In this document: one piece after another, positions 8,400 to 34,313 of the stretch | Layout: every line of letters starts with the position of its first letter | Numbering within the stretch: position 1 is the stretch's first letter | DNA from: Nemertoderma westbladi | Lineage: Eukaryota; Animalia; Xenacoelomorpha | Assembly: GCA_032718475.1 (NCBI GenBank) | Contig: JAUCBJ010003769.1 | Span: 1 to 34,313 of the forward strand | Direction of reading: 5' to 3' | Length of the DNA: 34,313 bases | Made by a program: the position numbers and the translations under genes | Notes under the pieces: generated by a model | Told to the model about the DNA's origin: nothing | What the model saw: the letters and a program-made list of their open reading frames with translations, nothing else | The model's database searches: none

Positions 8400-9960
8400 C
8401 CAAGGTACTGTCACTGAAAATCAATTTAATTCTAATTTTGAGAATTCCCCCTCTGTAACAATGTCGGTTTTTCATTTAAAATGTCGTTGCTTGCCAAAAA
8501 TCTTTACAGCTATTACATATTATTTATCTTCACTGAATCATACTTTCGAAGTACTCACTTTTACGGAAACATTTTTATCCAAAGACACACCCACTGATTT
8601 ACTGAAAATTAATGGTTATGACGGTCTGTTTTATGATTGCCGGGTTCTGCCAAAAACAATGAAAATTAGTAAGAAAAAACTCCAAAGAGCGGCGCTGCAA
8701 TTTATTTTTAAGAATCTACTAATTTTGACATTAAACCTGAGCTAAGGATTGAGGGTTTTGAAAATTCATGGGTTCAACTACATCGACCCAACAAGAGGAC
8801 GCTTGTAATAGGCACAATCTTTCGTCCAAATTCAGTTGAGCTACCATATTTCCTTACCAAACTTGAAAAAACGATTACAGATAAATCAAATTGTGATATA
8901 ATTTTAACGGGGGATTTTAATGTAGATTTATTAAAAGCAACAAAAATATTATATTCATATTTTTACAAATATTACTTCTTCGGTTTCTCATTATTCCGGT
9001 ACCTTTTTTACTAAAGTTGGCACATCAGATCATCAGGCTACGTTCATCACTTTTCAAAATTATCACAACTATTTTAAAAGTACCAAAACGACAACTTTTT
9101 TTGATTATTCAAAATTCAATTGTGATAATTTTCTTCATGATCTAAACTGCCTGGATACGTGGACGTATACTGACGTGGACGTACATTTCTACTGTTGGTT
9201 CAAATTTATCCCAGGAAATAGCCAAACCTAATCGGTCTCCCGTATGGTATATCTCACATAATGTGAGATATGCCATAAGGGAGAGCCCCCCCCCCCCCCC
9301 CCCCAATCTTTTGTACTAACAGAAACATCATCCTAAACAACGACAACAAGCCGACAACGACAACGACAACAACAACGACGCAAGCTCTCCTATCTATGCT
9401 TGAAAAATTATATCAAACACTAGAAGATAAATTGTATTCCTGTGCTATTTATATTGATCTTAAAAAAGCTGGATCATTCTTTCTTATTCAAAAAATTACA
9501 AGCATACGGTATTCGAGGAATTCCACATATGTTATTAACTGATCGTGTTCAGGTCACTGTAGTCGATAATTGTTTGTCATCTGTAATGCCACTTGTCTGT
9601 AGAGTCCCTCAAGGCGCCACTTTATCCTGTTTACTATTCCTCATGTACATCAACGACCTTCCAAATGCCTCCTCTCTCTTTACCACTTTATTTGCCGATG
9701 ACACGACTCTTTTTTCACAAGATCAATCTATACAAAATCTTATTAAAAATACAAATATTGAACTAATTAAAATCAATAATTGGCTTATTGGCTAATTCGC
9801 TTTCGCGTAATGTTAAAAAACCGAGCATACATTTTTCAGTAATGGAAACGGTAGTAATTCTAATAGTTCGCTAACAATAAATGGCCTATATATCAAGCAA
9901 ACAGACGTGGCAAAGTTTCTCGCAATCTGGTTGGATTCAAAATTATCCTGGAAAATACAT
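8400..9960 (+). mobile_element. Degenerate CR1/L2-group LINE ORF2 (AP endonuclease and reverse transcriptase)
   Basis: Endonuclease-like SVFHL..., FTETFL and ILTGDFNVDLL (about 8900). RT motifs KKLQAYGIRG, VPQGATLS, FLMYINDLP and LFADDTTL. Confidence 0.85.
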
Positions 9961-11077
9961 ACTAGAGACGGGCCTAGCGGCCCGTAAAGCAAGTCGTAGG
10001 AGACAGTACGAATCAAGTAAAAGCTTTTTGTTCTGTCTGATAATCAATTAGTGTGAGGGTAGTCCCGGTGGTGTACGAGAAATTTTCTAGACAACTTCGA
10101 ACTATAATTATTATGTTGTAATCATCTAATGAATTATAAAAGCTGTTGTGATTATAGAAGATAGAGCAGTTAGCGAAATGATTATTTTGTTCTATAGGAT
10201 AGAGTAGTCAGAGAGTTAGAGTAGTCGAGTCGTTGTTTAATAATAATAACAGCAGTTGCCATGAATTCAATATATACAATCGCGCAAAAGAAGTGATAAG
10301 ACAAATTCGTTCTTATTTTTGTAATAAATAAAACAGGTTGAGATGTTTCAATGTAAACCGCGATTAACAATTTACACTGTTCAATGTAAACCACGATATT
10401 AATTAAATATAACAATTATATTATTATTATAACAGATTTTTATATTTCAAACTATAATGTTAGCCTTATGGAGAATCATTATGAGGCTGAGTAAACATTC
10501 AGCCTTATAAGCATACAGCCTCCACAGTATTAATGTTGGCACAGAGATTTCAAAATAAAACAATAATGCGATGAGAGCATAGTACAATACACTGTGTAGC
10601 CAACACACTGTTTAACTAACAGTCATTTAGCTTGCACGCCAATTAATTACATAGCAAGGATGCTTTGGGAAGAGTTATTCAGCTGAGACTGCAATAGCCA
10701 ACTAAACCAGTTAATGTTTTGTTTGATTACTGTCTGGGTTGTAGAATAGAGTGATAATAAAACTTGGCACACAAAGTACTTCTTTGTTAGTTGCCCTTCC
10801 TATTGAATGCATTACCAGGCCATCTCTATACATTTTTCATGAGTGCCAGCTGGTGTTTTATCATTGCGCCTATGGCAATTTTAGTGTTTTGGGGCTATTT
10901 TTCGAAATAAATCAAGTCGAGATGTTTCAATTTAAACCGCGATTTCACAAGTACCCTTAGAAATCCATTTTCATGTTCCATGCAAAATTTCATCAAAATC
11001 GTTAGAGCCGTTTTTGCTCTAGGTCAGTAGTCAGTAGCCTTTTTTTCTTACAGTAATCAAGTCTAACGACTTGCTAA
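9961..11077 (-). mobile_element. Non-autonomous Helentron/HINE-like element A, inserted in the CR1 LINE
   Basis: Left end ACTAG plus hairpin ACGGGCC-TAGC-GGCCCGT plus AGCAAGTCGTAG. Right end CTAACGACTTGCT is the matching subterminal inverted repeat. CAGT repeats lie near the right end. Confidence 0.6.
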
Positions 11078-12584
11078 CTAGTGACGGGCCTAGCGGCCCG
11101 ATAAGGAACCGACTTTTTATTTTAATTTAAAAGTGACAACGAGAATTAGTATAGAACTAATAATTATGTAAAAATACAATCATATTTCATACAATAATTA
11201 TTAATAAATTTGATCTATTATTAGTTGCTCAATTCTAGAACAAAATCGACCTGCAACTAGTGAAGACCTCGTTTTGGAATTTCGAAACCACGCTGGTGCG
11301 ATGCGCGATATCGTGTTTAGTTAATAAATTGAAAACTCCATCAGTTCATGTGCAACCAGTAATAAGAAATCGCGATAAATGTAATTAAATAAAAATTATT
11401 CTAGAAAAATTTTCCTCAAAAAGTATGAAGTCTTGGCATTGGTGACGCGAAACTAGGCTAGTGAGATTCAGGATATTGCGTTTAATATAAAAATCGAAAA
11501 CGCTATCGAATTCCGTAAAGGCGTTAATAAAATACTGCAACTTTTTTGAAATTTGTAAAATTCTAGAACTAGAAAAAATTAATTTTTGAACGGCGCTGTT
11601 TGGGGTTTCGAAACATGGATAGGCTGAAAGAGGACATCGAATTAAGTTGAAAAATGAAAACCCCATCGAATTTGGACAAAGCGTTCCGGAGTTATAGCGG
11701 ATCGAAAAAAAATGACCCCCCCCCAGTCGCCAAAAATTTACAGTAATTTAAAATTTTGCAAAAAAAATTTTTTGCGTTATTTTTGATGGCGAATCGATTG
11801 GCAGTACTGGCCACGAAAATTTTTTTGTTGAAATTTTTGGTCAGAAAAAAAAACATGGAAAAAGTATATTTTTAAAAAGATTTGATGTCTTTGCCTATGG
11901 TCAGAGAATGATCCAACTCTGTAACTTGGCAATCGCTCAAATCCATTCAGCTGAATGGCACAGTAGAGTAAACTAAAGTAAATTCCCTATACAATGTTCT
12001 GAAGGGGAGACTGACAGAGAGTAATCCAACAATAAAACATTTTTGCAATAATGTTGGCATTAATGTAGCCAACTCACTGTGTACGTAACAGTCATTCAGC
12101 TTACATTAGCAGAGTGAGATATTCCCATAGATTGCATTGGGAAGAGTAATTCAGCTGAGGCGATATTAGATTTCAAACTAAACCAACCCGTTAATGTTTG
12201 CTTTGACAGAGAGTGGTGGCCTATACAAACAGTATGGGTGTACTGAGTATAATAATCTTGGCAACCTCATCGATTTATTACTAAGCCTTCTGTAGAAATG
12301 CATTACATAAGCCATTTTTCATCAGGACACCAGCTGTCATTGGTGTTATTTTACCATTGCGCCTATGGCGTTTTTTCGTTTATGTCCATTTTTCGAGCCC
12401 ACGGCTCATGGACGAAATAGCGGAACATACCAGGGACCTTAGAATCGCGGTATCTAGCCGCTGTGAAAATTTCATCAAAATCGTTAGAGTAGTTTTGGCT
12501 GTAGATCAGTCAGTCAGTCAGTCAGCCAGCCAGCCAGCCAGTCTCGAGCAATTCTTACAGTAATGAACCTCTCGGTTCCTAACT
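11077..12584 (-). mobile_element. Non-autonomous Helentron/HINE-like element B, related to A
   Basis: Same ACTAG and CGGGCC-TAGC-GGCCCG hairpin. Subterminal inverted repeat AGGAACCGA / TCGGTTCCT. (CAGT)n(CAGC)n at about 12506-12542. 12030-12490 is homologous to 10555-11010. Confidence 0.6.
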
Positions 12585-12619
12585 AATTATAATCAAGTCT
12601 AACGACTTGCTAATTAACT

Positions 12620-12835
12620 ATTTTAAATATTTAAAAGATATAACGTACGGCTGGGATCTTTTACAAACTTAGGCATATTTTCCCCTCACTGATATTAAGC
12701 GTCTATATTACTCCCTTTTACATCCTTATCCCTATCTGCTTTACGGCCTTATCTTGTGGTAACTTTATGCACATTGGATGACCTAACAAAAAAAATATTC
12801 CCAGCACCATGTAATCTACAATTGGCAGGATGTAA
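12620..12835 (+). mobile_element. Continuation of the CR1/L2 LINE ORF2 after the nested insertions
   Basis: Reads KLRHIF...KRLYYSLLHPY...YGLILW, the post-RT region expected after KLSWKIH at about 9940-9960. Confidence 0.7.
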
Positions 12836-12869
12836 TGCGGTTTGCCGCTTTAATAATGTTTTGCCGCTT

Positions 12870-13140
12870 TTCGTCAAAATTGCACCTCCAAAATCCCTAC
12901 CACCCATGTGACTTTCGTGAGATTATCCGTATCTTCAAGGCCGATGTCCTTGAGAGGCATCTTAAGAAGGCACGGGCTGTCCATCTTGCTTATTTTCTCC
13001 ATGAGATAGCCAAAACACAAGATTGTATACAAAATGGTCCTCACCACAAAAGCAATGTCATGCATAGCGGAGGCAGCTTTGCCCAAGTCTCAAGCTTTCT
13101 TGGGTGGACCAATATTATATAGTGTCTGGTTAGAGATGTG
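12870..13140 (-). mobile_element. RTE-clade LINE 3' fragment
   Basis: Nucleotide similarity to 23420-23685 (CCGTATCTTCAAGGCC, GGGCTGTCCA, AAAGCAATGTC..GCGGAGGC, ATAGTGTCTGGTT). Confidence 0.7.
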
Positions 13141-15588
13141 TATAGATAGATAGATAGATATATAGAGATTACATAAATATTCTGGAATTATAGATTTTTC
13201 AGTTTGAAAAATATTTGAATGCAATTTGATAGTACATGGTCAAATTTTTACTACCAGTCAACACCCCACCCAAATGAACTTTCAGCCATGTTCAAATGCC
13301 ATCCTTCATTTTGTAGCACTCGGATAAAGTTCTGCCTGATTTCGCCAAACAGTGCGACCAGCCAGCATGTTTCAGCTTCATGTGTGCAGACTAGTCCTTT
13401 GTACAAGATTGGGCTTCACCTGATTAGGGAGTTTGTCAAGCTTTGATTCTTTTTCAAAGGGGAAATTTATCTGGAAAAGTATCACACCTGACACTTCATG
13501 TTTTATTACCAGCAATTGGGATTGTTGTATCTCGTCGAGAGATAACCCTACATTTGTTATTTCAATTGTTATTTATATTTACAGTTATTGATGAAGCTTA
13601 TATTAAAATGACTGGCAATGTTTATTGGATTTATTTATTGCCCTCATCGATACCAAGAAGAACAATAATAATAATCTTTCAACGACAGCTGTGCATAAAA
13701 TAGTTTACTATCGATTTATGAATCAAAGGTGTTGAGTAGAAGATATACAAGTGGACCCCAACTGGTACATTTTTTTATATAATCGATCAATAAGCCCACT
13801 TTTATGCTTGGATAACAAGCCCATACCAAATACAAGGTTATATTTGTTATTATGTTACTATTGTTATTATTAAATTACATCACGCAACATATTTAAAGTG
13901 ATTAATAATCAGCCCATATCTACCATGGTAAATTATCACACCCAAAGAAATATGGCATACTTGCACCTAATTTGATCGAAAAAGTTTCCTTGCAGCGGTA
14001 TTACGCTACCATTAAGCGGTTATAAGTAAAAGATGAGTAATTCCTGCATGAGTATTAGAGCGATGCATTACATTGGGTTATAAATGCAGGAAATATATTG
14101 ACTTTCAGAGGTAGAAGAATAACAAAATTTCCTAATTAACTTGTTTTAGCACCTCTAAAGCGTAAACACCTCTAATTAATTTCCTAATATCAAAATCATC
14201 GTCGCATCTGTCGTGTATAACATGGCGGATATAGGGAAACAGATTTGTTCTAGAAAGTACTCGAACGCAAAGGAAAAATGTACAAGTTGATACAATAAGA
14301 TTTACTAAATAAGATTTTTTGAAAATTTTATAAAAAAATTTTTTGTCATATATTAGAAATTCCAGAATTGAAAATATTCTATTTTTTTCTATTGATTGTA
14401 ATCGAAAACGGTTTCGAAATTTTGAATCAGCGCATCAATATTGACCAGAAAACGTGTTTTCGGACAAAATTTTTTTTGCGCGTGATTTTTGGCCAAATAT
14501 AACAAACGCTGATATTTGGTGAAAAGTTGAGCAAGAATAAATGGTTTAATAAGTAATTGGACCAGTTTAGATAAAAATCTCTTTTGGACTAAAACATGTT
14601 AAAGTTTAAAAAATAAATAAGCATAGAATTTTAAGAAAATTAATTTTCCCCACAGTGGTTTTTTTAAGATTTCGTGATTTAGTACCAGTACGAGCCTGAA
14701 AGGGACTCGAAACGTGTCAGAAGCTGCCTACCATCGCCCAACACGACTGACACGGAGCGGACAGATTGGGTATCAAAAGTTGGTGGGGTGGTTAAAATCT
14801 TATAAAGTAAAGTCAGTAGTCCTATAAAGTAAAATACTTATCTGTCATTTGTACTGTAGGTTTATTAACTCTTATGAATATTTGGTGTTATTAGTAGTAG
14901 GGTCTTGGGCGGCTCTGCGACAGTTAGACCACACTGACACCCATTGGGTGTCATATGACACCCAATTATCACCCTATGGGTGTCATTGGGTGTCATTGGC
15001 GCCAGACTGTCTGGGTGACACCTCCCAATTAGGCTAATTAGACCCTAATTGACAGGTGTCATCAATTAATTAGTACAATTAAACCCTAACAGGTGTCATA
15101 TGACTCCTAATTAGGGTTTAATTGATTATCCTAATTAATCAGACTGATTAGCGCCCTGACACACAATGGGTCATCAGTGTTGTCTAACTGTCGCAGAGCC
15201 GGCTCAAGAGGGTGTCATAAGTGACACCGCAGCTCTTTTATTCATTAATACTTATTTATTTATATTTAATTTTAAATTAATTAATTGTACTTTATTTTAG
15301 ATTTACCAATAATTAGTTTTATATATTGGTTTCTATATGACCTCATTGACTTTCATCTCGTTATACTTAGCCATAGGGTATACAGCTCCCTTACTGGTAA
15401 CTAATTACTCTTATCTATATCAAGACAGCTTTATCGTTGACCTTTGACCTTTGACCCCCAATTAGCTTTAACCAAGCAACAGCTTATTAATAATAGTTGT
15501 ATCCAAGCGCCCCACCCCCCCACCCCGTGACAGCTCTGATTACTAATTACTCTTACCTATATCCAGCCGTCTGCAGTTCCATAGTCTG

Positions 15589-15980
15589 CCGCTAGAGGGC
15601 ATATGATCTGAAATTAACATCTTCTCTAACTTTGCTATTTTCATTCCGAATGGGTTTAAACTCGGTAGGCATCTACTACGGCATAGGCCATATCTTTTGC
15701 GGAGCCATAGAGTAGTATGAAGTTCCCCTGTCTACCGCTAGAGGGCGTGTTATTTAAAAATTAACATCTTCTCTAGCTTTGTTATTTACAATCCGCAAAA
15801 CTATGAAGTTATATTGCTTAAGGGTTCTAAGGGGCGAGCCATGAGGCAAGATGTTTGAGACTTATTTAGATATATTATTACTTAATTTTGACCCCCCAAA
15901 CGGCATCTACTACGGCATAGGCTATATCTTTTGCAGAGTCACAGAGTAGTATGAAGTTCCCCAGTCTGCCGCTAGAGGAC
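15589..15980 (+). promoter_or_regulatory. Three CTCF-like motifs (CCGCTAGAGG[G/A]C) in the left arm
   Basis: At 15589-15600, 15735-15746 and 15969-15980. Close to the CTCF core CCASYAGRKGGC. Confidence 0.4.
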
Positions 15981-16076
15981 GAAATGTCTCAAAGTGAAAA
16001 CCATACGGTAGCCATGAATTGGTTACTAGGCAATAATACTGCATTTTGCAACGTTAGGCCTATTGCTGACCGAACG

Positions 16077-16160
16077 AAAACTGCCCTGGTTCATGCAGGG
16101 GTCGAACCCATGACATACGAGAGATGTGAATTCTACGCAACCACTACACCAAGGTGGAAC
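16077..16160 (-). ncRNA. tRNA-like RNA polymerase III unit, left arm copy
   Basis: Mirror of 20149-20232 with A box, B box and T4 terminator. Confidence 0.45.
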
Positions 16161-16223
16161 AGTAACCTTCGAATTTGTTCGTTGACGTTCGAATTTGTAA
16201 GACTCTCATTTAAGACTTGACAC

Positions 16224-17337
16224 AGACTATGCCTCACCGAGGCATAGACTATGACTCACTGAGGCATAGACTATGCCTCATTGAGGCACTGAGGCATAGA
16301 CTATGCCTCACTGAGGCACTGAGGCATAGACTATGCCTCACTGAGGCATAGACTATGCCTCACTGAGGCATAGACTAGGTCTCACTGAGGCATAGACTAG
16401 GCCTCACTGAGGCACTGAGGCATATACTATGACTCACTGAGGCATAGACTATGACTCACTGAGGCATAGACTATGCCTCACTGAGGCATAGACTATGCCT
16501 CACTGAGGCATAGACTATGCCTCACTGGGGCACTGAGGCATAGACTATGCCTCACTGAGGCATAGACTATGACTCACTGAGGCATAGACTATGCCTCACT
16601 GAGGCATTGAGGCATAGACTATGACTCACTGAGGCATAGACTATGCCTCACTGAGGCATAGACTATGCCTTACTGAGGCACTGAGGCATAGACTAGGCCT
16701 CACTGAGGCATAGACTATGCCTCACTGAGGCATAGACTATACCTCACTGAGGCATAGACTATGCCTCACTGAGGCACTGAGGCATAGACTATGACTCACT
16801 GAGGCATAGACTATGCCTCACTGAGGCACTGAGGCATAGACTATGCCTCACTGAGGCATAGACTAGGCCTCACTGAGGCATAGACTATGCCTCACTGAGG
16901 CACTGAAGCATAGACTATGACTCACTGAGGCATAGACTATGCCTCACTGAGGCATAGACTATGCCTCACTGAGGCATAGACTATGCCTCACTGAGGCATA
17001 GACTATGACTCACTGAGGCATAGACTATGCCTCACTGAGGCATAGACTATGCCTCACTGGGGACTGAGGCATAGACTATGCCTCACTGAGGCACTGAGGC
17101 ATAGACTATGACTCACTGAGGCATAGACTATGCCTCACTGAGGCATAGACCATGCCTCACTGAGGCATTGAGGCATAGACTATGACTCACTGAGGCATAG
17201 ACTATGCCTTACTGAGGCACTGAGGCATAGACTAGGCCTCACTGAGGCATAGACTATGCCTCACTGAGGCACTGAGGCATAGAATATGACTCACTGAGGC
17301 ATAGACTATGCCTCATTGAGGCATAGACTATGCCTCA
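16224..17337 (+). repeat. Palindromic minisatellite, 22-bp unit CTATGCCTCA-C-TGAGGCATAG-A
   Basis: Directly visible. Variants include TGACTCA for TGCCTCA and an inserted 8-mer CTGAGGCA. Confidence 0.97.
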
Positions 17338-17759
17338 CCATGGATGGGCTTTACCACTGTACTCGCATCTGCTGTCTCATTGGCTGCTCGATGCCTCAGA
17401 TTAAGGGTCTAAGGTCTTCAAGCTGACCATTTGCTTAGTTTTCTAATTAGAAGGTCGTGAGTTCGAACCCTAGAAGAGCATTATTCTTTTTCCTAGCACT
17501 CGGCTGACTCTAGTGACCACTAGCTTTGACTCTCCCAGCTATAGTGATAGTATGCAACCTTGGGAGTTAATGTGAGTAAAGGCCAAGAGATTAGACTTCA
17601 GGTTGCCTCTATTGGTTCATTCTTCTTAACTTTATAAAATAACTCAACCCTTATTTAAAGTTTTAAAAATTATGACTTAGTCGACCAATTTTCCAAAGTA
17701 TATTATAAAAACATATAATTTCTTGAATAAATAGACCTAATAGTAATAAATATTGTGGG

Positions 17760-17885
17760 GTAAATACATTTATAATACTAATATAATTATTATGGATAAA
17801 TAGTCCTAATACTATTATAATTGTTATGGATAAATAGTCCTAATACTAATATAATTGTTTTGGATAAATAGCCCTAACACTATTA
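17760..17885. repeat. 34-bp AT-rich tandem repeat in the cargo gene 3' region
   Basis: TGGATAAATAG(T/C)CCTAA starts at 17793, 17827 and 17861. Homologous to about 32180-32300. Confidence 0.8.
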
Positions 17886-17910
17886 TGAAAGGAACTCAAA
17901 CAAACAAATG

Positions 17911-18961
17911 TCAATAGCGTCGTCCTGCGCGGGCATATACTGAACGAGAGTTTTTTATCATAGGTCTTCGAAAATTAGTAAAAGCTGGTTGATTTACTTT
18001 ACTTTCATCTTCCTCATTACCCAACTGTTTCTTAATTTTATTCAATTGTTCATTAATTTTCAGTAATTTACTTTTATTTCCCAGAACCTGTCTTAATATC
18101 TCTTCTCTATTTTCCTCATTTTCTTCCATTTGTTTAATAAATTTCCGCATTTGATTTTTGTTTCCTAATATTTGTCTCAATATCTCTTCTTTATTTTCAT
18201 CATTCTCTTCTAAATGTTTAATAAATTTCTGTAATTTAATTTTGCTTCCTAGGACTTGGGTCAATGTCGCCTCTTTATTTTCTTCATTTTCCTTCAAATG
18301 TTTAATAATTTTCCGCAATTGATTCTTATTTCCAAGTAATTGCCTCTTTATTTCCTCATTATCATCATTTTCATCCTCTTCTCCACTTTCCTGATCTTCA
18401 CTTTCTTCACCCTCTTTCTGACCTTCCTTTCTTATCCTCTTCCCCGCCTTCACTTTCTTCATCGTCTTCCTGTTCTTCACTTTCTTCATCCTCTTCCTGT
18501 TCTTCACTTTCTTCATTCTCTTCCTGACCTTCGCTATCTTCACCCTCTTCTTGACCTTCACTTTCTTCATCATCATCCTGATCTTCACTTTCTTCGTTCT
18601 CAACTTCACTCTCTTCAACTTCATCCTGACCCTCACTATTTTCATTCTCCATCTCATCATCCTCTTCTTCTCCATCTTTCTCACTCAAATTTTCCTCATT
18701 TTCTAGGGGTAACTGTTTTTGTATCCCTTTCAAAATATTCATAACTTTATGAAATTTACTTTCCATTGTCTGTTTTATATTTAATATATCACGCTCATCT
18801 CTCTTTTTCTTTTCATCTTCACTAAAAATATCTTCGGATTTTTTAAATTTTTTTGGTAATGGAGCCATTAGTTTTTCCTTTCCATGTGTTTCCATATGAC
18901 GAGATAAATTGTCTTGTCTCATTTCTTTATTACAAACCAAACAACTTTCATGTCTATGCAT
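17911..18961 (-). pseudogene. Cargo gene, frameshifted copy: C2H2-like finger, acidic repeats and four 28-aa helical repeats
   Basis: ORF 18407-18961 gives the N-terminus and the 3' part of ORF 17911-18684 gives the C-terminus of the protein seen intact at 31105-32154. Two 1-bp deletions near 18425-18435 relative to the acidic repeat unit. Confidence 0.85.
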
Positions 18962-19099
18962 TATATAGCAATGTCAATTGATAATATTGAATTTTAGCTA
19001 AATGATTTTACAAAATTTTAAATAAATTAAACTTTTATGAAAATAAATAAAACTTTTTAATATAAAACTTAGAGAATGACTGGGAATGCGTTGAACGGG

Positions 19100-19200
19100 G
19101 GTTATTATAGAGGGAGGCTAGAATGGATTATCCAATCAGAGTGCGAGGGTGAGTTAGGCAGCCAATCAGGACTCGAGGGAGGAAAGTTAGACAGCCAATG
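19100..19200 (-). promoter_or_regulatory. Putative Pol II promoter of the cargo gene: TATA-like box and three CCAAT boxes
   Basis: CCAAT at 19132, 19162 and 19195 (spacing 30 and 33 bp). TATAATA on the minus strand at 19103-19109, also kept in copy 2 at about 30958. Confidence 0.55.
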
Positions 19201-19412
19201 AGAGAGTAGATGCGAGTACAGTGGTAAAGCCCATCCATAGTGAGATAACGTCACACTAACTCTCAAGGATAGTTATACTCACCATTCAAATATCCCTCGC
19301 AAACCAGATTCCCCCCCAGCATCTAAAGTATTCCACTTCAATGCAAAATATATAGAGCTTTAGTTGGATTTGAACCTGTGCTTGTAAACTTTTTTGTGCT
19401 CGTATATTGAAG

Positions 19413-20085
19413 TGAGGCATAGACTATGCCTCACTGAGGCATAGTCTATGCCTCAGTGCCTCAGTGAGGCATAGTCTATGCCTCAATGAGTCATAGTCTA
19501 TGCCTCAGTGCCTCAGTGAGGCATAGTCTATGCCTCAGTGAGTCATAGTCTATGCCTCAGTGCCTCAGTGCGGCATAGTCTATGCCTCAGTGAGGCATAG
19601 TCTATGCCTCAGTGCCTCAGTGAGGCATAGTCTATGCCTCAGTGAGACATAGTCTATGCCTCAGTGAGGCATAGTCTATGCCTCAGTGAGTCATATTCTA
19701 TGCCTCAGTGCCTCAGTGAATCATAGTCTATGCCTCAGTGAGGCATAGCCTATGCCTCAGTGAGGCATAGTCTATGCCTCAGTGCCTCAGTGAGGCATAG
19801 TCTACGCCTCAATGAGGCATAGTCTATCCCTCAGTGAGTCATAGTCTATGCCTCAGTGCCTCAGTGAGGCATAGTCTATGCCTCAGTGCCTCAGTGAGGC
19901 ATAATCTATGCCTCAGTGAGTCATAGTCTATGCCTAAGTGCCTCAGTGAGTCATAGTCTATGCCTCAGCTGAGGCATAGTCTATGCCTCATGCCTCAGTG
20001 AGGCATAGTCTATGCCTCAGTGCCTCAGTGAGTCATAGTCTATGCCTCAGTGAGTCATAGTCTATGCCTCAGTGAGGCATAGTCT
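19413..20085 (-). repeat. Palindromic minisatellite, right arm (inverted relative to the left array)
   Basis: Unit TGAGGCATAG-T-CTATGCCTCA-G. The spacer bases T/G are the complements of A/C in the left array. Confidence 0.97.
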
Positions 20086-21649
20086 GTGTCAAGTCTTAAA
20101 TGAGAGTCTTACAAATTCGAACGTCAACGAACAAATTCGAAGGTTACTGTTCCACCTTGGTGTAGTGGTTGCGTAGAATTCACATCTCTCGTATGTCATG
20201 GGTTCGACCCCTGCATGAACCAGGGCAGTTTTCGTTCGGTCAGCAATAGGCCTAACGTTGCAAAATGCAGTATTATTGCCTAGTAACCAATTCATGGCTA
20301 CCGTATGGTTTTCACTTTGAGACATTTCGTCCTCTAGCGGCAGACTGGGGAACTTCATACTACTCTGTGACTCTGCAAAAGATATAGCCTATGCCGTAGT
20401 AGATGCCGTTTGGGGGGTCAAAATTAAGTAATAATATATCTAAATAAGTCTCAAACATCTTGCCTCATGGCTCGCCCCTTAGAACTCTTAAGCAATATAA
20501 CTTCATAGTTTTGCGGATTGTAAATAACAAAGCTAGAGAAGATGTTAATTTTCAAATAATACACCCTCTAGCGGCAGACAGGGGAACTTCAGACTACTCT
20601 ATGTCTCCGCAAAATATATAGCCTATGCCGTAGTAGATGCCGATTGGGGGGTCAAATTAAGTAATAATATATCTAAATAAGCCTCAAACATCTTGCCTCA
20701 TGGCTCGCCCCTTAGAACCCTTAAGCAATATAACTTCATAGTTTTGCGGATTGTAAATAACAAAGCTAGAGAAGATGTTAATTTTTAAATAATACGCCCT
20801 CTAGCGGTAGACAGGGGAACTTCAGCCTACTCTATGCCTCCGCAAAAGATATGGCCTATGCCGTAGTAGATGCCTGCCGAGTTTAAACCCATTCGGAATG
20901 AAAATAGCAAAGTTAGAGAAGATGTTAATTTCAGATCATATGCCCTCTAGCGGCAGACTATGGAACTGCAGACGGCTGGATATAGGTAAGAGTAATTAGT
21001 AATCAGAGCTGTCACGGGGTGGGGGGGTGGGGCGCTTGGATACAACTATTATTAATAAGCTGTTGCTTGGTTAAAGCTAATTGGGGGTCAAAGGTCAAAG
21101 GTCAACGATAAAGCTGTCTTGATATAGATAAGAGTAATTAGTTACCAGTAAGGGAGCTGTATACCCTATGGCTAAGTATAACGAGATGAAAGTCAATGAG
21201 GTCATATAGAAACCAATATATAAAACTAATTATTGGTAAATCTAAAATAAAGTACAATTAATTAATTTAAAATTAAATATAAATAAATAAGTATTAATGA
21301 ATAAAAGAGCTGCGGTGTCACTTATGACACCCTCTTGAGCCGGCTCTGCGACAGTTAGACAACACTGATGACCCATTGTGTGTCAGGGCGCTAATCAGTC
21401 TGATTAATTAGGATAATCAATTAAACCCTAATTAGGAGTCATATGACACCTGTTAGGGTTTAATTGTACTAATTAATTGATGACACCTGTCAATTAGGGT
21501 CTAATTAGCCTAATTGGGAGGTGTCACCCAGACAGTCTGGCGCCAATGACACCCAATGACACCCATAGGGCGATAATTGGGTGTCATATGACACCCAATG
21601 GGTGTCAGTTGGGTCTAACTGTCGCAGAGCCGCCCAAGACCCTACTACT
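20086..21649 (-). repeat. Right terminal inverted repeat, non-satellite part, with an extra approximately 233-bp tandem unit
   Basis: Units start CCTCTAGCGG at 20331, 20565 and 20798. Otherwise the reverse complement of 14893-16223. Confidence 0.95.
20149..20232 (+). ncRNA. tRNA-like RNA polymerase III unit, right arm copy
   Basis: A box TGGTGTAGTGG at 20158-20168, B box GGTTCGACCCC at 20201-20211, TTTT at 20229-20232. The cloverleaf is only partial. Confidence 0.45.
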
Positions 21650-22319
21650 GTTATTATTGTTGTGGGGAAGCCCATATATTTAGAATCAAGTCTCAGAATT
21701 AGGTTACTTCGGGTTATTTCTATGAGTGTTCGGAATTATAAATTTGATATTCAACCAACATTTATATTCTTTTTGCGACCTGCATGACATATCAACTTCC
21801 CCCAACAACACGCAATAATACCAGTGACTAGTTTTAGGGGATTTGGTGACATTCCTCAGGGCTTAAATCGGCCTCTATCCATGAGGATCCAGGATTGAAG
21901 GCAACAAATTGTGAGACCATGGTTGAAGAAATGAAGTTTATTATTATCAAGAGTTTGATAGTCACCGTTATTTAATTGTTGCTAAGTAGGTAACAATAAT
22001 CAATTGATGAAAATAGGTAAAAGGCAGTTTATAAGTCAGGTGAAGGCTAGTTGGGGATGGCTTGAAGATGTAAAGCTGGTTTTAGACCAAACAAGGTTAT
22101 AACATCGCAGCTCATTTCGTGATCATAGTCCGTTGCTGCACGTCCACAAAAGTGACAGCTTGTAATGTAATTATTGGTTACAATTGTGTTAATATGTAAG
22201 AGAGTGGGGGAGAAGTGTTGGAATGGAGAGATCATGGGGAGACCAGTACGGTAGGACGTTGTTTGAATAAGAAATTGGAAATTGAGAACTGTTTATATGA
22301 AATCCAAGTTGTTGATATT

Positions 22320-23220: not shown

Positions 23221-23340
23221 ACAACCAGGCGCTAAATATCACTTCGTCTTCGCTTAAAACTTTTGAAGGACTTTTAAAAGTTTTTTAAAATAAATTATAC
23301 ATTATGCATACATATATAATACAATAAATATTATTATTGT
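23221..23340 (+). repeat. 120-bp direct repeat, left copy (probable TSD of the RTE insertion)
   Basis: Matches 25435-25554 with 3 mismatches counted by eye. Confidence 0.9.
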
Positions 23341-25434
23341 GTACTACTACTAGGATCGGCATGCTGCATTGCAGCTGCATTTTTTAAGAATGCTGTGCCG
23401 GCTTATCGACAAAATTACACCGCCACAACTCCCTATCACCCATGACATTTGCTAGATCATCCGCATCTTCAAGGCCAGTGTACTTTAAGATGCGTCTCAA
23501 GAAAGTCATGGGCTGTCCACCATGCTTATTCACTCCATGAGGCTGCCAAAGTACATGATTATGCACTGGCTGGTCCTCACGGCGAAAGCAATGTCCTGCA
23601 AAGCGGAGGCGATTTTGTTCTAGTGTCAAGCTTGGGGGAACCAATGAGACACCTCCAATGTTATATAGTGTCTGGTTGGAGATGTGTGCATTGTACTTGA
23701 CACAATGTACCCGGCGTAGCATTCTTGTGAATGTGCCATCCAGAGATTTGGTGTCCTCAGCAGTTAGAGCCCAGCATGGACTCCCGTAGAGGAGTACTGG
23801 AACTACTGCTGCTCTAAATAATCGGACCTTAAGTTTCCGATTAATTCTAGGTGACTTCCAAATCCTGGAAAGCCTATTCAAGGCTGCCCATGCCTTTCCC
23901 TTACGTATTCGAAGGTCCTCACCTGACTTCCGGGTCCATGATCCCAGGTAACAGAAGTCATCCACATGCTCAAGCATACCATCCTTTGAGATTATGGTCA
24001 TACGATCAGAGACTTGCTGAGGACTTTCAAAGTTAACTGTCAAAATGTTGGTCTTTCTGGAGTTAATAAAAAGACCAACACTAGAAGCAGCATGTTCTAA
24101 TGAGCTGAGGAGCCGTTGGGCTCCATCTAGTGATTCTGAGAGTACTCCTAAGTCATCAGCAAAGTCTAGATCAGTTAGGTACTTGGCAGGATTTCCTCGA
24201 CTTCTGGAGCCACTAGGTTATCATCACCCCATCATCATTATGATGATCTAAGGACATGCGTAGAACATAGTCAACAACAATTATGAACAAGAATGGTGTA
24301 AGTGTGTCTCCCTGGAGGACGCCCCATAACACTTCAAATGGTTCTGTGTCACTGTCAACAGTAGACACAATAATGTTGTCGAACCATCGTATACTGATCT
24401 GATTGCTGCAATAATTTCATCAGGAATCCCATATAATGAAAGTATGCTGAACATACGTGAGCGAGAGACTGAATCAAAGGCTTTGAAGAAGTCAACAAAG
24501 ATAACAGCCAGATGCCTGTCTTTCTTTTTTTGATAATTCTTCAATTATCCTTCTAAGTGCCAAAATGGGCTCCATGGTCCCACGACCTTTACGGAACCCA
24601 TTCTGATTTCCACGGAGCAGTCTCTCAATGGGATCCCTGAGGCGATTTAATAGAATTCTATTGTATAGCTTTGCAGCAATCGAGATCAATGAGATTCCCC
24701 GAAAAGAACCATAGAGTGTTAGGTTGCCCTTCTTGGGAACTGGCACCAACTTATTTGTTTTCATTTCTTGTGGGACTCTTGTTGTTCGGTACATGTCTAC
24801 TATGATGGGATAGATGAGCTTTAAACACTCAGGTATTTTAAAGACCTCAGGGGGAACACCATCTACTCCACTGGCACGATTGGTCTTAATGCTCTTTGCA
24901 GCAGCCTTCACTTCTGCAAAGGAGATATCGCCAATGGGAATATCTGGGAGTACAGACTCAGACACTTTTACTTCTATAAAGTTATCAGGCAATACCCTGT
25001 CATTATTGAGGAGCTTTTCAAAGTGGGCTTTCCAACCATTGAGGCGATCGGCTGGTGATTCAGCCTTAACCTTGGTGGTTGGTTGGCTTTTTCGACCAGC
25101 AAGCAAGTTGATCGATCTTCATGCCTGGGATGATTGCCTGCTGTCGTCAGCATCATTGATGGCATCAACCTGTTGGTTTATTAGCTCCTGTAAATTAACA
25201 GAACTGCCTGTTCAGGGACCTAGATGCAGCCTTAACTGCATTCTTGGCCCCTGTAGTCTGTTTGAGTCGGGTCTCTTTCTACGCCTTGTAGAGGTCATTT
25301 CGGCACTTCTGAATTTTGTTGTCAGTCCAGGGGTCCGTTTCCTGTTTCGAGGGTATACAGGACTGTTTCTGCAGCTGCTAACTTAACTGCCTCTGTGAAG
25401 GCAGTATAGTCACAGTGATCTGCCGCCTCGGCAG
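23341..25434 (-). mobile_element. 5'-truncated RTE-clade LINE with frameshifted reverse transcriptase
   Basis: NQNGFRKGRGT, FVDFFKAFDSV, QGDTL, DLDFADDL, FCYLGS, VLLYGS and RLRFAGH motifs. Short (TAG)n 3' tail at about 23343-23352. Confidence 0.92.
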
Positions 25435-29610: not shown

Positions 29611-30520
29611 GTCACTTTCCACCACTCTTTGCTCTGGTGTCTTGAACAATTCTATACCAATCCTGATGTTGTCCCCATTCTGTATGTAATGGTAAATAAA
29701 TTGTCTTGATAGTGTCTTGGAGGTAGTTTCACTGCCCATGCTTTTACTATATACTTGTCTACGGCTGCCTGTACTTCTTTATGTTGTTTGTCATTCCTCT
29801 CCAATTTATATTTCATTCTCTCGAACCGTTTTAACACCATTACCAAATTATTTCTCAATCCTTGTTGCTCATCCTTCCATAACATTCGTATTTTGAAATG
29901 TCCATCTTTAAATTGTATTGATTGTTCATATAAATTCTTTCTTGTATATCTTCTTGTGAGTCTCCCAATGTCAAATCGAAGAGTCCTTCACAGTCCTGGT
30001 TAAAAATACCATCCAGATCTTATTTAATTAATTCCCTCATCACTGATGCCTTCTTCTTTACTCTCTTCCATCTGATCTATTTCCATCTGTATTCCTACAT
30101 TGTCTCCATCAACTGGGCCATATATCACCCACTCAAATGATCTCAGTTTTTCCCATGGGCTGTTTCTTATTCCTCATCACTCGTCTCTGGTCTCGAAACA
30201 TTCGGGATTGTCGACCCCTATTCATTAGACTAACCATGGGTACGTCCACTTTTTCATGGCTAAAATCAATATTGCAGAGATGATCATAATGTGCAGTTTA
30301 TTTTGCACTGGGTTGCGACTTACTTATTGTTAGGTGGTCCATTGTTGCCATTTCTGTTGCAACTATACTGAAATTTCCTCTCCCCTCCACCACTGGTACA
30401 ATAGTTTATGGGCCTATCCCAAGGCGTCCTTTAATTCTCTATTAAAGGATGCCAGTAGTAATGGTTTACCCTACTTCTGCGACAGTTTGGTCCTACTTCA
30501 CACCTTGGGTGTTAAGTAGG
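29611..30520 (-). mobile_element. Degenerate BEL/Pao LTR-retrotransposon pol fragment (protease to RT region)
   Basis: Manual reading gives HYDHLCNIDF, IGVDNP, WVIYGPV, SQED and IQFKDGHFKIRMLWKDEQQGLRNN...KRFERMKYKLERND, the motif order characteristic of BEL/Pao pol. Confidence 0.7.
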
Positions 30521-31104
30521 TCATTAATTAATTAACCAATTAATTAATTGGTCGATTAAACAATTAATTAATTGTTTAATCAATCGATTTGTATCAAATA
30601 ATGTTGCCAAAGGCAATTTAATTTGACACAAATCAATCAGATAGGGACGCGCGATGAATAAATTGTACTACAGCAAACGAAATATCGAGGCCCAAAACAT
30701 AAATATACCCTTTCACGAAAATAAAGTGGGCCCAGTTTGGCCCCGAGTCATCCCTCAATAATCTGCGGTTGTTGGGCTCTTATTAACCGTAGCATAACTA
30801 ACCCAAACATCAACGCGTGAATGGGGCCTGCCACAGAGTTTAAATTATTCAAACCTATAGCTTCGTTATTACATCAATTCGTCCGAGAAATTATAATAAA
30901 CATCTGCTCTTGCAATAGATTGCATTCTTCTTTCACAACTCCATTCTAACCTCCCTCTATAATAGCCCCTAGTCACCGCATTCCCATTCATTCTCTAATT
31001 TTTATTTTTAAAAGTTTTATTTATTTTCATAAAAGTTTTATTTATTTAAAATTTTGTAAAATCATTCAGCGAAAATTCATAATATCAATTGACATTGCTA
31101 TATA

Positions 31105-32154
31105 ATGCATAGAGATGAAAGATGTTTGGTTTGTAATAAAGAAATGAGACAAGATAATCTATCTCGTCATATGGAAAGACATAGAAAGGATAAACTAATG
31201 GATCCATTACCAAAGAAATTTAAAAAATCCGAAGATGTTTTTAGTGAAGATGAAAAGAAAAAGAGAGTTGAGCGTGATATTTTAAAGATAAAACAGACAA
31301 TGGAAAATAAATTTCATAAAGTTATGAATATTTTGAAAGGGATACAAAAACAGTTACCCCTAGAAAATGATGAGAATTTGAGTGAGGAAGATGAAGAAGA
31401 AGAGGACGAAGAGATGGAGAATGAAAATAGTGAGGGTCAAGATGAAGTTGAAGAGAGTGAAGTTGGGAACGAAGAAAGTGAAGATCAGAAAGATGACGAA
31501 GAAAGTGAAGGTCAGGAAGAGGGTGAAGATAGCGAAGGTCAGGAAGAGAATGAAGAAAGTGAAGAACAGGAAGAGGATGAAGAAAGTGAAGAACAGGAAG
31601 AGGATGAAGAAAGTGAAGAACAGGAAGAGGATGAAGAAAGTGAAGAACAGGAAGAGGATGAAGAAAGCGAAGGTCAGAAAGAGGATGAAGAAAGTGAAGG
31701 TCATGAAGAGGACGAAGAAAGTGAAGAACAGGAAGACGACGAAGAAAGTGAAGGTCAGGAAAGTGAAGAAGATGATGAAAATGATAATAATAAGGAAATA
31801 TTGAGACAATTACTTGGAAATAAGAATATATTGCGGAAAATTATTAAACATTTAGAAGAGAATGGTGAAAATAAAGAAGAGATATTGAGACAAATATTAG
31901 GAAACAAAAATCAAATGCGGAAATTTATTAAACAAATGGAAGAAAATGAGGAAAATAGAGAAGAGATATTAAGACAGGTTCTGGGAAATAAAAGTAAATT
32001 ACTGAAAATTAATGAACAATTGAATAAAATTAAGAAACTGTTGGTTAATGAGGAAGATGAAATTAAAGAAAATCAACCAGCATTTACTTATTTTCGAAGA
32101 CCTATGACAACAAACTCTCGTACAGTATTTGCCCGCGCAGGAGGACACTATTGA
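31105..32154 (+). CDS. 349-aa protein: C-x2-C-x11-H-x3-H finger, basic NLS-like PKKFKK, coiled coil, (EEDEESEEQ)n acidic tract and three 28-aa helical repeats
   Basis: Intact ATG-to-stop ORF. Conserved with 17911-18961, with in-frame differences in repeat number. Confidence 0.8.
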   Translation: MHRDERCLVCNKEMRQDNLSRHMERHRKDKLMDPLPKKFKKSEDVFSEDEKKKRVERDILKIKQTMENKFHKVMNILKGIQKQLPLENDENLSEEDEEEEDEEMENENSEGQDEVEESEVGNEESEDQKDDEESEGQEEGEDSEGQEENEESEEQEEDEESEEQEEDEESEEQEEDEESEEQEEDEESEGQKEDEESEGHEEDEESEEQEDDEESEGQESEEDDENDNNKEILRQLLGNKNILRKIIKHLEENGENKEEILRQILGNKNQMRKFIKQMEENEENREEILRQVLGNKSKLLKINEQLNKIKKLLVNEEDEIKENQPAFTYFRRPMTTNSRTVFARAGGHY

Positions 32155-32342
32155 CATTTGTTTGTTTGAGTTCCTTTCATAATAGTATTAAAACTATTTA
32201 TCCATAACAATTATATTAGTATTAGGACTATTTATCCATAACATTTATATTAGTATTAGGATTATTTATCCTTAATTATTATATTAGTATTATAAATGTA
32301 TTTGCCAACAATATTTATTACTATTAGGTCTATTTATTCAAG

Positions 32343-32490
32343 TTTACGGGGATCTGACCTACCGGATCGGTATTGATCTCCCCCCCGCTTGGTGTTGGGC
32401 CCTTTAGAGTGGTGCAATTTGTACTTTGTGCTATAAGGTGTTTTATATCTACTATATTTGGCTAATATATTTTCTTATTATAAAAAAAAA
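32343..32490 (+). mobile_element. 148-bp poly(A)-tailed retro-insertion with a 12-bp TSD
   Basis: TATTTATTCAAG at 32331-32342 and 32491-32502, with an A9 tail. The homologous site in copy 1 (about 17722-17733) is empty. Confidence 0.85.
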
Positions 32491-32723
32491 TATTTATTCA
32501 AGAAATTATATGTTTTTTATAATATATTTTGGAAAATTAGTCGACTAAGTCATAATTTTTAAAACTTTAAATAAGGGTGGAGTTATTTTATAAAGTTAAG
32601 AAGAGTGAATCAATGGAGGCAACCTGAAGTCTCATATCTTGCCCTTTACTCATAAGACCGCACGTTAACTCCCAAGGTTGCATACTATCACTATAGCTGG
32701 GAGAGTCAAAGCTAGTGTACAGG

Positions 32724-34313
32724 AGTGAGGGAAGTGAGGCAGTGAGGAAGTGAGGGAAGTGAGGGAATGAGGGAGGCAGTGAGGGAAGTGAGGCAGTGAG
32801 GCATAGTGAGGCATAGTGAGGCAGTGAGGCATAGTGAGGCAGTGAGGCATAGTGAGGGAAGTGAGGGAAGTGAGGGAAGTGAGGCATAGTGAGGCAGTGA
32901 GGCATAGTGAGGCAGTGAGGCATAGTGAGGCATAGTGAGGCATAGTGAGGCATAGCGAGGCATAGCGAGGCATAGTGAGGCATAGTGAGGCAGTGAGGCA
33001 TAGTGAGGCATAGTGAGGCATAGTGAGGCATAGCGAGGCATAGTGAGGCATAGTGAGGCAGTGAGGCATAGTGAGGCATAGTGAGGCATAGTGAGGCATA
33101 GCGAGGCATAGCGAGGCATAGTGAGGCATAGTGAGGCAGTGAGGCAGTGAGGCAGTGAGGCATAGTGAGGCATAGTGAGGCATAGTGAGGCATAGTGAGG
33201 CATAGTGAGGCATAGCGAGGCATAGTGAGGCATAGTGAGGCATAGTGAGGCAGTGAGGCAGTGAGGCATAGTGAGGCATAGTGAGGCAGTGAGGCAGTGA
33301 GGCATAGTGAGGCATAGTGAGGCAAGTGAGGCAGTGAGGCAGTGAGGCATAGTGAGGCATAGTGAGGCATAGTGAGGCATAGTGAGGCAGTGAGGCAGTG
33401 AGGCATAGCGAGGCATAGTGAGGCATAGTGAGGCATAGTGAGGCAGTGAGGCATAGTGAGGCATAGCGAGGCATATTGAGGCATAGTGAGGCATAGTGAG
33501 GCATAGTGAGGCATAGTGAGGCATAGTGAGGCATAGTGAGGCATAGTGAGGCATAGTGAGGCATAGTGAGGCATAGTGAGGCATAGTGAGGCATAGTGAG
33601 GCATAGTGAGGCATAGTGAGGCATAGTGAGGCATAGTGAGGCATAGTGAGGCATAGTGAGGCATAGTGAGGCATAGTGAGGCAGTGAGGCAGTGAGGCAT
33701 AGTGAGGCATAGTGAGGCATAGTGAGGCATAGTGAGGCATAGTGAGGCATAGTGAGGCATAGTGAGGCATAGTGAGGCAGTGAGGCATAGTGAGGCATAG
33801 TGAGGCATAGTGAGGCATAGTGAGGCATAGTGAGGCATAGTGAGGCATAGTGAGGCATAGTGAGGCATAGTGAGGCATAGTGAGGCATAGTGAGGCATAG
33901 TGAGGCATAGTGAGGCATAGTGAGGCATAGTGAGGCATAGTGAGGCAAGTGAGGCAAGTGAGGCATAGTGAGGCATAGTGAGGCATAGTGAGGCATAGTG
34001 AGGCATAGTGAGGCATAGTGAGGCATAGTGAGGCATAGTGAGGCATAGTGAGGCATAGTGAGGCATAGTGAGGCATAGTGAGGCATAGTGAGGCATAGTG
34101 AGGCATAGTGAGGCATAGTGAGGCATAGCTGAGGCTATGCCTCACTATGCCTCACTATGCCTCACTATGCCTCACTGCCTCACTGCCTCACTATGCCTCA
34201 CTATGCCTCACTGCCTCACTGCCTCACTATGCCTCACTATGCCTCACTATGCCTCACTATGCCTCACTATGCCTCACTATGCCTCACTATGCCTCACTAT
34301 GCCTCACTGCCTC
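32724..34313. repeat. Head-to-tail (TGAGGCATAG)n satellite that inverts at 34129-34134 and runs off the window
   Basis: Directly visible. Variants TGAGGCAG, TGAGGGAAG and CGAGGCATAG. (CTATGCCTCA)n from 34135. Confidence 0.97.

What the first reader, a model, noticed from the sequence alone, without database searches (positions are those of the whole stretch)
14893..21649. Single-gene mini-Maverick: Polinton-type ends with no replication or capsid genes
Seen: AGTAGT...ACTACT termini, an exact 6-bp TSD (GTTATT), near-identical inverted arms making up about 70% of the element, and one cargo gene. Known: Polintons/Mavericks have 6-bp TSDs and 5'-AG termini with short AGT-type repeats suited to protein-primed replication, but are usually 15-20 kb and encode pPolB, integrase, ATPase and capsids. 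Inference: a recently inserted non-autonomous or satellite element mobilised in trans, with an unusually modular arm.
Basis: partly seen in the sequence, partly recalled or inferred. Interest (0 to 1): 0.88.

Follow-up and report, generated by a model that had tools for sequence, protein, structure and literature searches.

The report
High-copy gutted Maverick carrying orphan gene
A 6.8-kb mobile element has the end motif and 6-base insertion footprint of a virus-like Maverick transposon but none of its enzyme or capsid genes; sequencing depth suggests hundreds of copies or more, so it likely multiplies by borrowing a full Maverick's enzymes while carrying one orphan zinc-finger gene.

Summary
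Observation confirmed. The element (14893-21649) has AGTAGT//ACTACT ends, a target-site duplication of exactly 6 bp, and arms differing by 8 substitutions in 1,333 bp. It encodes no polymerase, integrase, ATPase or capsid. New here: (1) Contig depth in public DNA runs is orders of magnitude above neighbouring single-copy DNA over the arm and the gene, so this is a large family. (2) The central gene has a frame break here. An uninterrupted 349-codon copy lies in a second element starting at 30454, which has the same terminal motif, different subterminal DNA and a related minisatellite. (3) The protein has one C2H2 finger of unusual spacing, an acidic tract and helical repeats. Among the proteins retrieved, the closest full-length one with this finger is a probable Polinton terminal-protein/protease fusion (weak structural support). 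Best reading (0.75): a non-autonomous Maverick derivative copied and integrated by a helper's enzymes. No helper and no other copy's duplication could be examined, because no genome is held. Selection on the gene is inconclusive (dN/dS 0.89). Repbase-style non-autonomous Polinton names exist, and this scan noted palindromic mini-Mavericks in other genomes. New variant of a known kind.

The parts
14887..14892 (+). left copy of the 6-bp target-site duplication GTTATT
14893..21649 (.). element 1, 6,757 bp, ends 5'-(AGT)2//(ACT)2-3'
   Evidence: a loose end before 14892 in 2 contigs of run X4 fits other flanks at this boundary
14893..15215 (+). terminal module that folds back on itself (mirrored at about 21327-21649), leaving the first 10 nt unpaired; rich in short palindromes
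   Evidence: DNA fold -110.4 kcal/mol, z -19.5, 0 of 100 shuffles as good
14893..16223 (+). left arm outside the minisatellite; partner is 20084-21649
   Evidence: 8 substitutions, one 233-bp gap
15567..16002 (+). module of 146/233-bp tandem units in the arm (3 core motifs left, 4 right); probably taken from a dispersed host repeat
   Evidence: similar core at 3415-3481 outside the element; many contigs leave the arm at 15567 and 15999/16002
16070..16154 (-). tRNA-like unit with A-box and B-box-like motifs, pointing outward (mirror at about 20155-20240, +); a lead only
   Evidence: motif scan, pattern chosen after seeing the sequence, 3 of 300 shuffles positive; ARAGORN 0; no Rfam match at gathering score; fold z 0.36
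16224..17338 (.). left minisatellite of self-complementary 22-bp units (with 8-bp half units) built on TGAGGCATAG
17337..17386 (.). short inner inverted repeat, partner about 19192-19241 (overlaps one CCAAT box)
17713..17886 (.). 34-bp AT-rich tandem repeat downstream of the gene, shared with element 2
17911..18961 (-). cargo gene: C2H2 finger (C-x2-C-x11-H-x3-H), helix, acidic tract, four 28-residue helical repeats; frame break in the acidic tract
19104..19199 (-). promoter-like stretch: TATA-like box about 148 nt upstream of the ATG in both elements; three CCAAT boxes in element 1 only
   Evidence: consensus match only
19411..20085 (.). right minisatellite, 675 bp
20084..21649 (-). right arm outside the minisatellite
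21650..21655 (+). right copy of the target-site duplication
30454..34313 (.). element 2 (right end beyond the window): starts AGTAGTA, shares a 12-nt subterminal motif with element 1, otherwise different palindrome-rich end
   Evidence: depth step at 30454 and loose ends there in run X4
31105..32154 (+). uninterrupted copy of the cargo gene, 349 codons, three helical repeats
   Evidence: 89.6% nucleotide identity over 1,416 columns including flanks
32724..34308 (.). minisatellite of 10-bp AGTGAGGCAT units (same core), about 147 head-to-tail, then reversing direction at 34120-34143

Best explanation
This is one copy of a large family of elements that have Maverick/Polinton-type ends but no replication, integration or capsid genes, and it is likely copied and inserted by the enzymes of a full-length Maverick in the same genome. 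Shown: ends, 6-bp duplication, lack of core genes, near-identical arms, very high depth, and a gene-plus-minisatellite cassette present in two elements with different subterminal DNA. Inferred from Maverick biology: a helper's terminal protein/pPolB would prime on the (AGT)2 repeat by jumping back; the long arms would let a displaced strand fold into a panhandle that regenerates the end and keeps the arms alike; and the helper's retrovirus-like integrase would make the 6-bp duplication. For the cargo I commit, at about 0.35, to a DNA-binding adaptor of Maverick origin: the finger and basic helix would bind the element's own repeats, the helical repeats would oligomerise, and the acidic tract would contact chromatin or helper proteins, favouring the element's replication. 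A neutral passenger is about as likely.
For: Ends and duplication match the commonest vertebrate Maverick motif. Ginger and IS3EU ends differ. Depth over the arm is 13,567-242,871 in X1 and 3,154-55,585 in X2, against 19-75 and 20-87 in 13600-14303. Depth over the gene is 29,460-46,739 in X1 and 7,526-9,692 in X2, against 13-28 and 11-45 in the flank, stepping up at 30454. A second, differently built element also starts with AGTAGT. In the 1.84-billion-protein search, 7 of 9 hits carry the same x11 finger. The closest fingers (13-16 of 20 identical) belong to P0002, P0003, P0005 and P0043. P0043 continues into a region whose predicted helix, Ser/Gly loop and strand, followed by a Cys and a His, fit the TP and vOTU description of PMC11161782. 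Its best fold match is a protein of Drosophila-associated adintovirus 2 (E 1.2e-5). polB-less Polintons that stayed active are reported.
Against: No autonomous element with these ends was seen: no genome is held, and both collection scans gave only chance matches (13 of 13 loci). Only one target-site duplication could be read. Depth from summed contigs is not a copy number by the tool's own statement; X1 or X2 may be the window's own sample; and X4 shows only 157-242 over the gene. The link to Maverick proteins rests on a 20-residue finger and a model of pLDDT 43 (TM 0.19 to the hit). The same finger is on 33 P-loop-like proteins of unknown context, partly because the profile was seeded with such proteins. 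dN/dS between the two copies is 0.89 over 213 codons (p 0.82), and this copy's gene is broken. Modular arms with tandem repeats also characterise foldback elements (recalled).
Confidence: 0.75

Rival explanations
1. A foldback-type non-autonomous element moved by a cut-and-paste DDE transposase, whose ends only resemble Maverick ends.
For: Long arms built of tandem and palindromic modules; very high depth, whereas Mavericks are mostly low-copy in vertebrates; no helper seen.
Against: The duplication is exactly 6 bp. Foldback-forming MULE and P/Galileo elements make 7-10 bp (recalled). IS3EU/GingerRoot make 6 bp but end TA..TA; Ginger ends TGT with 4-5 bp. Two different elements in the window start with AGTAGT.
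Confidence: 0.1
2. The ends inserted as a Maverick-type unit, but the present interior is a one-off product of deletion or recombination between minisatellites after insertion; the single-gene form is not itself the travelling unit.
For: The arrays differ in length between arms; the gene is broken; contigs show many skips and alternative joins within the arm; and 5 contigs in X1 place minisatellite-like letters directly upstream of the gene, so family members differ in layout.
Against: The arms differ by only 0.6% and the duplication is perfect, leaving little time. The gene itself has depth of the same order as parts of the arm, so gene-bearing forms are common.
Confidence: 0.12
3. Assembly artefact (fold-back chimera).
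For: Giant inverted repeats and a minisatellite that reverses direction (34120-34143) can arise in long-read or amplified libraries (recalled).
Against: Exact duplication on both sides; arms not identical; unique spacer. Arm sequence is present in runs of 3 studies. Flank contigs of X1 and X2 run 29-30 bases into element 2 with 0 differences (just short of the tool's 31-base bridging rule).
Confidence: 0.03

Closest known systems
Autonomous Mavericks/Polintons with (AGT)2//(ACT)2 ends (PMC8097293; passages, section 7 and first part of section 14 read)
   Same: End motif, perfect 6-bp duplication, long terminal inverted repeats, intronless gene.
   Different: 6.8 kb against 12.7-24.6 kb; none of the eight core genes; arms of 1.3-1.6 kb plus minisatellite (2.2-2.4 kb) against 46-1,447 bp; apparently far more copies.
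Non-autonomous Polinton families of Repbase, e.g. Polinton-1N1_DR (name seen in one passage of PMC9341505; that N means non-autonomous is recalled; the entry itself was not seen)
   Same: Polinton ends without a full gene set, presumably moved in trans.
   Different: Structure and gene content could not be compared; here an orphan gene-minisatellite cassette is shared by two end types.
polB-less Polintons of Pieris mannii (bioRxiv 10.1101/2025.02.07.637071; passages and section 13 read)
   Same: TIR-flanked, lacking the polymerase, apparently still amplified.
   Different: Those keep other core genes and carry LINE or LTR cargo; this keeps no core gene.
Transpovirons (PMC11161782; passages, abstract and section 6 read)
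   Same: Capsid-less elements of the Polinton network that depend on a helper.
   Different: They encode their own pPolB-S1H replication protein and parasitise giant viruses; this encodes none and is integrated in what appears to be an animal genome.
Palindromic mini-Mavericks noted by this scan in other genomes (e1-8075949, e1-9924924, e1-7884335, e1-7884490, e1-7883520, e1-7908075; unchecked AI notes)
   Same: Maverick ends, no core genes, mostly inverted repeat, small cargo, sometimes a zinc-finger gene, large families.
   Different: Element 1 has one gene in a 2.07-kb spacer rather than one per arm; no sequence look-alike was found. Element 2 may be of the fully palindromic kind.

Membership tests
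Maverick/Polinton (autonomous) | 6-bp target-site duplication | tested here: met
   feature
Maverick/Polinton (autonomous) | (AGT)2//(ACT)2 or (AG)3//(CT)3 end motif | tested here: met
Maverick/Polinton (autonomous) | long terminal inverted repeats | tested here: met
   at or above the published range
Maverick/Polinton (autonomous) | protein-primed DNA polymerase B gene | tested here: not met
   no frame long enough; no Pfam match; tblastn with P0043 matches only the finger
Maverick/Polinton (autonomous) | retrovirus-like integrase, packaging ATPase, protease and capsid genes | tested here: not met
Maverick/Polinton (autonomous) | size 13-25 kb | tested here: not met
   6,757 bp; range
Non-autonomous Maverick derivative | Maverick ends and duplication without core genes | tested here: met
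   rows above
Non-autonomous Maverick derivative | multiple dispersed copies | tested here: met
   depth far above the flanks and loose ends at both left boundaries; order of magnitude only, no copies counted
Non-autonomous Maverick derivative | autonomous partner with the same termini in the genome | not testable with these tools
   no genome held; scans of viral and metagenome contigs gave chance matches
Non-autonomous Maverick derivative | 6-bp duplication at other copies | not testable with these tools
   contigs do not span copies; element 2's right end lies outside the window
IS3EU/GingerRoot | TA..TA (or TG..CA) termini with 6-bp duplication | tested here: not met
   ends are AG..CT; feature
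Ginger1/Ginger2 | TGTNR termini, 4-5-bp duplication | tested here: not met
Foldback elements (MULE, P/Galileo type) | long modular arms with tandem repeats | tested here: met
   feature recalled
Foldback elements (MULE, P/Galileo type) | 7-10-bp duplication | tested here: not met
   feature recalled
Transpoviron | own pPolB-S1H replication gene | tested here: not met
   feature
Viral satellite | packaged in a helper's capsid or present as free linear DNA | not testable with these tools
   only contigs were available
C2H2 zinc finger | C-x2-C-x12-H-x3-H signature or Pfam cut-off | tested here: inconclusive
   spacing is x11 and Pfam gives no C2H2 hit on the cargo; its relatives hit C2H2 families mostly below the cut-off; the single-sequence model did not fold the finger

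The most novel reading that the evidence does not exclude
A true satellite system of an animal Maverick. A cassette made of a finger protein and the palindromic minisatellite it binds hijacks the helper's protein-priming machinery, swaps between different Maverick end types, cycles between one-gene (element 1) and fully palindromic (possibly element 2) forms, and out-replicates the helper to hundreds or thousands of copies, perhaps travelling in its capsid.
Probability: 0.2. Interest if true: 0.8.

Novelty: new variant of a known kind. Interest (0 to 1): 0.56.

Why it matters
Whether animal Mavericks really replicate by protein priming and support parasites of their own has not been shown directly in the papers read here. 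A high-copy family that keeps only the ends maps the sequences needed in cis (terminal repeat, terminal hairpin, arm modules). It also gives an abundant target for detecting free linear, protein-capped intermediates, which low-copy Mavericks do not offer. It shows, too, a route by which an orphan gene reaches high dosage in a genome. The general kind (non-autonomous Polinton) is already named in Repbase and has recurred in this scan, which caps the surprise.

Tried and rejected
No genome is held, so copies, duplications and a helper could not be listed. End-motif scans: 2 of 2 viral and 11 of 11 metagenome loci were chance matches with no similarity to the window. Word-based protein searches with residues 1-90 found 0 of 11 and 0 of 20 candidates. 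The search for related loci on viral contigs found nothing for the cargo, the finger profile, P0043 or the P-loop family. Pfam gave nothing above cut-off for the cargo and PHROGs nothing. The Atlas gave only C2H2-type leads at 0.88-0.90; the helical repeats were never searched there because the service was down. The cargo model (pLDDT 58.8, pTM 0.21) had no fold match below E 2.7. The P-loop-like domain of P0013 and relatives matched no Pfam family or solved structure; that it resembles superfamily-3 helicases is recalled, not tested. The lead from earlier notes that such fingers are tails of packaging ATPases was not confirmed: no such protein was recognised among 104 retrieved. tRNA or ncRNA reading: ARAGORN 0; all 21 Rfam matches below gathering score, 20 of them hairpin matches in the minisatellite. 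No RNA holder was listed; run X6 is only guessed to be RNA and was not used as evidence. No contig spans element 1's left junction, so its presence or absence in other samples is open. Kapitonov and Jurka 2006 and Krupovic and Koonin 2015 are not held. No supplements were opened; those of PMC8097293 (end logos, TIR sizes) and PMC11161782 (vOTU alignments) may bear on the comparisons.
Full report
OBSERVATION. The element runs from 14893 to 21649, begins AGTAGT and ends ACTACT. GTTATT lies directly on both sides; of duplication lengths 2 to 12, only 6 matches. The arms pair over 1,004 nt at 99% without gaps. Aligned globally outside the minisatellites (1,333 vs 1,566 bp), they differ by 8 substitutions and one extra 233-bp unit on the right. 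With the minisatellite arrays (1,115 and 675 bp) the arms make up 69.3% of the element, without them 43%.

ANATOMY OF THE ARM. From outside in, each arm holds four modules. First, a 323-nt terminal module that folds on itself and leaves the first ten bases free (z -19.5, 0 of 100 shuffles). Second, an AT-rich stretch followed by 146/233-bp units whose core also occurs at 3415-3481 outside the element; many public contigs leave the arm at 15567 and 15999/16002, so this module is probably borrowed from a dispersed host repeat (inference). Third, a tRNA-like unit with A- and B-box-like motifs; ARAGORN, Rfam and folding give it no support, so it is a lead only. Fourth, a minisatellite of self-complementary 22-bp units. 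The 2.07-kb spacer holds a 50-bp inner inverted repeat, a 34-bp repeat, the gene and a promoter-like stretch. No other stop-free frame exceeds 99 codons outside the minisatellites.

A SECOND ELEMENT. Positions 17722-19127 match 32342-30940 at 89.6%. That copy lies in an element starting AGTAGTA at 30454, which shares only a 12-nt subterminal motif with element 1 and has its own palindrome-rich end (z -5.7). It carries the gene uninterrupted (349 codons), then about 147 head-to-tail 10-bp units with the same TGAGGCAT core, which reverse direction at 34120-34143. Only 182 bases of the far side lie in the window, so a full palindrome is possible but not shown. The gene, its downstream repeats and the minisatellite therefore travel as a cassette between at least two end types.

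FAMILY SIZE. No genome is held. Of 7 listed runs, 6 hold part of the arm, from 4 studies. I laid 4 runs on each of two stretches. Over the arm, summed contig depth is 13,567-242,871 (X1), 3,154-55,585 (X2), 3,552-410,226 (X3, same sample as X1) and 18-2,443 (X4). In 13600-14303 it is 19-75, 20-87, 66-237 and 0; the nearer flank is itself repetitive. At element 2, depth steps from 13-28 (X1) and 11-45 (X2) to 8,428-77,469 and 3,399-17,237 at 30454, and stands at 29,460-46,739 and 7,526-9,692 over the gene. X4 shows loose ends at both left boundaries (2 contigs each), as other insertion sites would give. The tool warns that summed depth is not a copy number, and X4 is about 40- to 300-fold lower over the gene than X2 and X1. 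I read this as hundreds of copies or more in X1 and X2, order of magnitude only.

THE CARGO. The protein has an N-terminal C-x2-C-x11-H-x3-H finger, a predicted helix (48-83), a tract that is 66% Asp/Glu, and three (element 2) or four (element 1) 28-residue helical repeats. In element 1 the reading frame breaks in the acidic tract. There is no full-length relative. HMMER over 1.84 billion proteins gave 9 hits, 8 of them to the finger, and 7 share the x11 spacing. A profile of six hits plus the cargo finger retrieved 95 longer proteins. Of all 104 examined, the x11 finger is in 33 of 33 with a P-loop-like domain, 1 of 2 with a TP/vOTU-like region, 7 of 8 others, and only 4 of 61 ordinary multi-finger proteins. 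The enrichment of the P-loop class is partly built in by the seeds. The fingers closest to the cargo's are those of P0002, P0003, P0005 and P0043 (13-16 of 20 identical). In P0043 a Gly-Ser-Gly-Trp loop sits between a predicted helix and strand, followed by a Cys in a helix and a later His, as PMC11161782 describes for Polinton terminal protein and vOTU domains. The best fold match is a C2H2 protein of Drosophila-associated adintovirus 2 (E 1.2e-5, 412 columns, TM 0.19), a Polinton-like virus. The model is poor (pLDDT 43), so this is weak support for a Maverick origin of the finger. Selection is inconclusive: dN/dS 0.43 (codons 1-92), 0.21 (93-150, p 0.03), 2.07 (229-349, two synonymous changes) and 0.89 for the pooled non-acidic parts (p 0.82); non-coding flanks differ by 4.6-8.5%.

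MECHANISM. Mavericks have 6-bp duplications and, most often, (AGT)2//(ACT)2 ends, whose repetition is thought to allow the jumping-back step of protein-primed replication (PMC8097293). The element keeps these cis signals and has lost every trans function, yet it is abundant and its arms are 99.4% alike. The simplest account (0.75) is copying by a helper's pPolB and insertion by its integrase; both steps are inferred, and no helper was seen. Long arms would allow panhandle formation, and slippage in the arrays would explain their unequal lengths (inference). For the cargo, a DNA-binding adaptor acting on the element's own repeats (0.35) and a neutral passenger are about equally likely; I favour the first only because gene and minisatellite stay together across end types. 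Rivals are a foldback element moved by another transposase (0.10), a one-off rearranged interior (0.12) and an artefact (0.03).

COMPARISON AND NOVELTY. It is not an autonomous Maverick (core genes and size fail) but works like a non-autonomous one. IS3EU/GingerRoot and Ginger fail on ends. A Repbase name Polinton-1N1_DR exists, polB-less active Polintons are described, and no non-autonomous copies were seen in the anole. Earlier notes of this scan report palindromic mini-Mavericks in other genomes; they are unchecked and show that the kind recurs. Papers seen only as passages: PMC4028283, PMC5718144, PMC10045372, PMC2836005, PMC6035795, PMC3014272, PMC8363768, PMC8502044, PMC9341505, bioRxiv 2023.08.22.554363 and 2024.01.15.575659. 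PMC6431247 was seen as passages and section 10.

VERDICT. A real, recently inserted, helper-dependent Maverick-type element of a large family, with an orphan cassette shared by a second element in the same window. New variant of a known kind; interest 0.56.

Noticed in passing
window 30454-34313: Second Maverick-type element with the same gene and a minisatellite that reverses direction at 34120-34143; may be a full palindrome of about 7.4 kb closing outside the window. Expected duplication GATGCC.
   Followed up: partly
window 16070-16154 (-) and 20155-20240 (+); further B-box-like motifs at 17459 (+) and 19376 (-): tRNA-like polymerase III promoter motifs inside the element; in run X4 depth peaks at 16064-16151, which could mean a captured SINE head.
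   Followed up: partly
proteins P0013, P0015-P0024, P0032, P0037, P0048, P0073-P0080 and others: A family of 270-360-residue proteins from ENA assemblies, with one or two x11 C2H2 fingers fused to a P-loop-like domain that has no Pfam or PDB match and recalls the helicase half of nanovirus-type Rep proteins (recalled); some lie on contigs of 340-480 kb.
   Followed up: partly
protein P0043 and its cluster: Stand-alone finger + TP-like + vOTU-like protein of 409-419 residues without polymerase domains; possibly a split Polinton polymerase gene.
   Followed up: partly
window 5989-6732 (+) and 25703-26440 (-): Host-like long single frames: a laminin-G/concanavalin-like domain (Pfam PF13385, E 1.3e-6), and a Cys-rich protein with a hydrophobic C-terminal tail and no Pfam match.
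   Followed up: no
window 23384-25400 (-), 12849-13097, 26988-27287, 8712-9795: Fragments of LINE retrotransposons (RVT_1 and endonuclease matches).
   Followed up: no
window 6778-7074: A 300-bp inverted-repeat element, 86% self-complementary, just downstream of the laminin-G frame; MITE-like.
   Followed up: no
window 23221-23340 and 25435-25554: 120-bp direct repeat at 98% flanking the LINE fragment; unexplained.
   Followed up: no
window 14304-14655: High-depth repeat (4,478-15,542 in X1) in the left flank of element 1.
   Followed up: no
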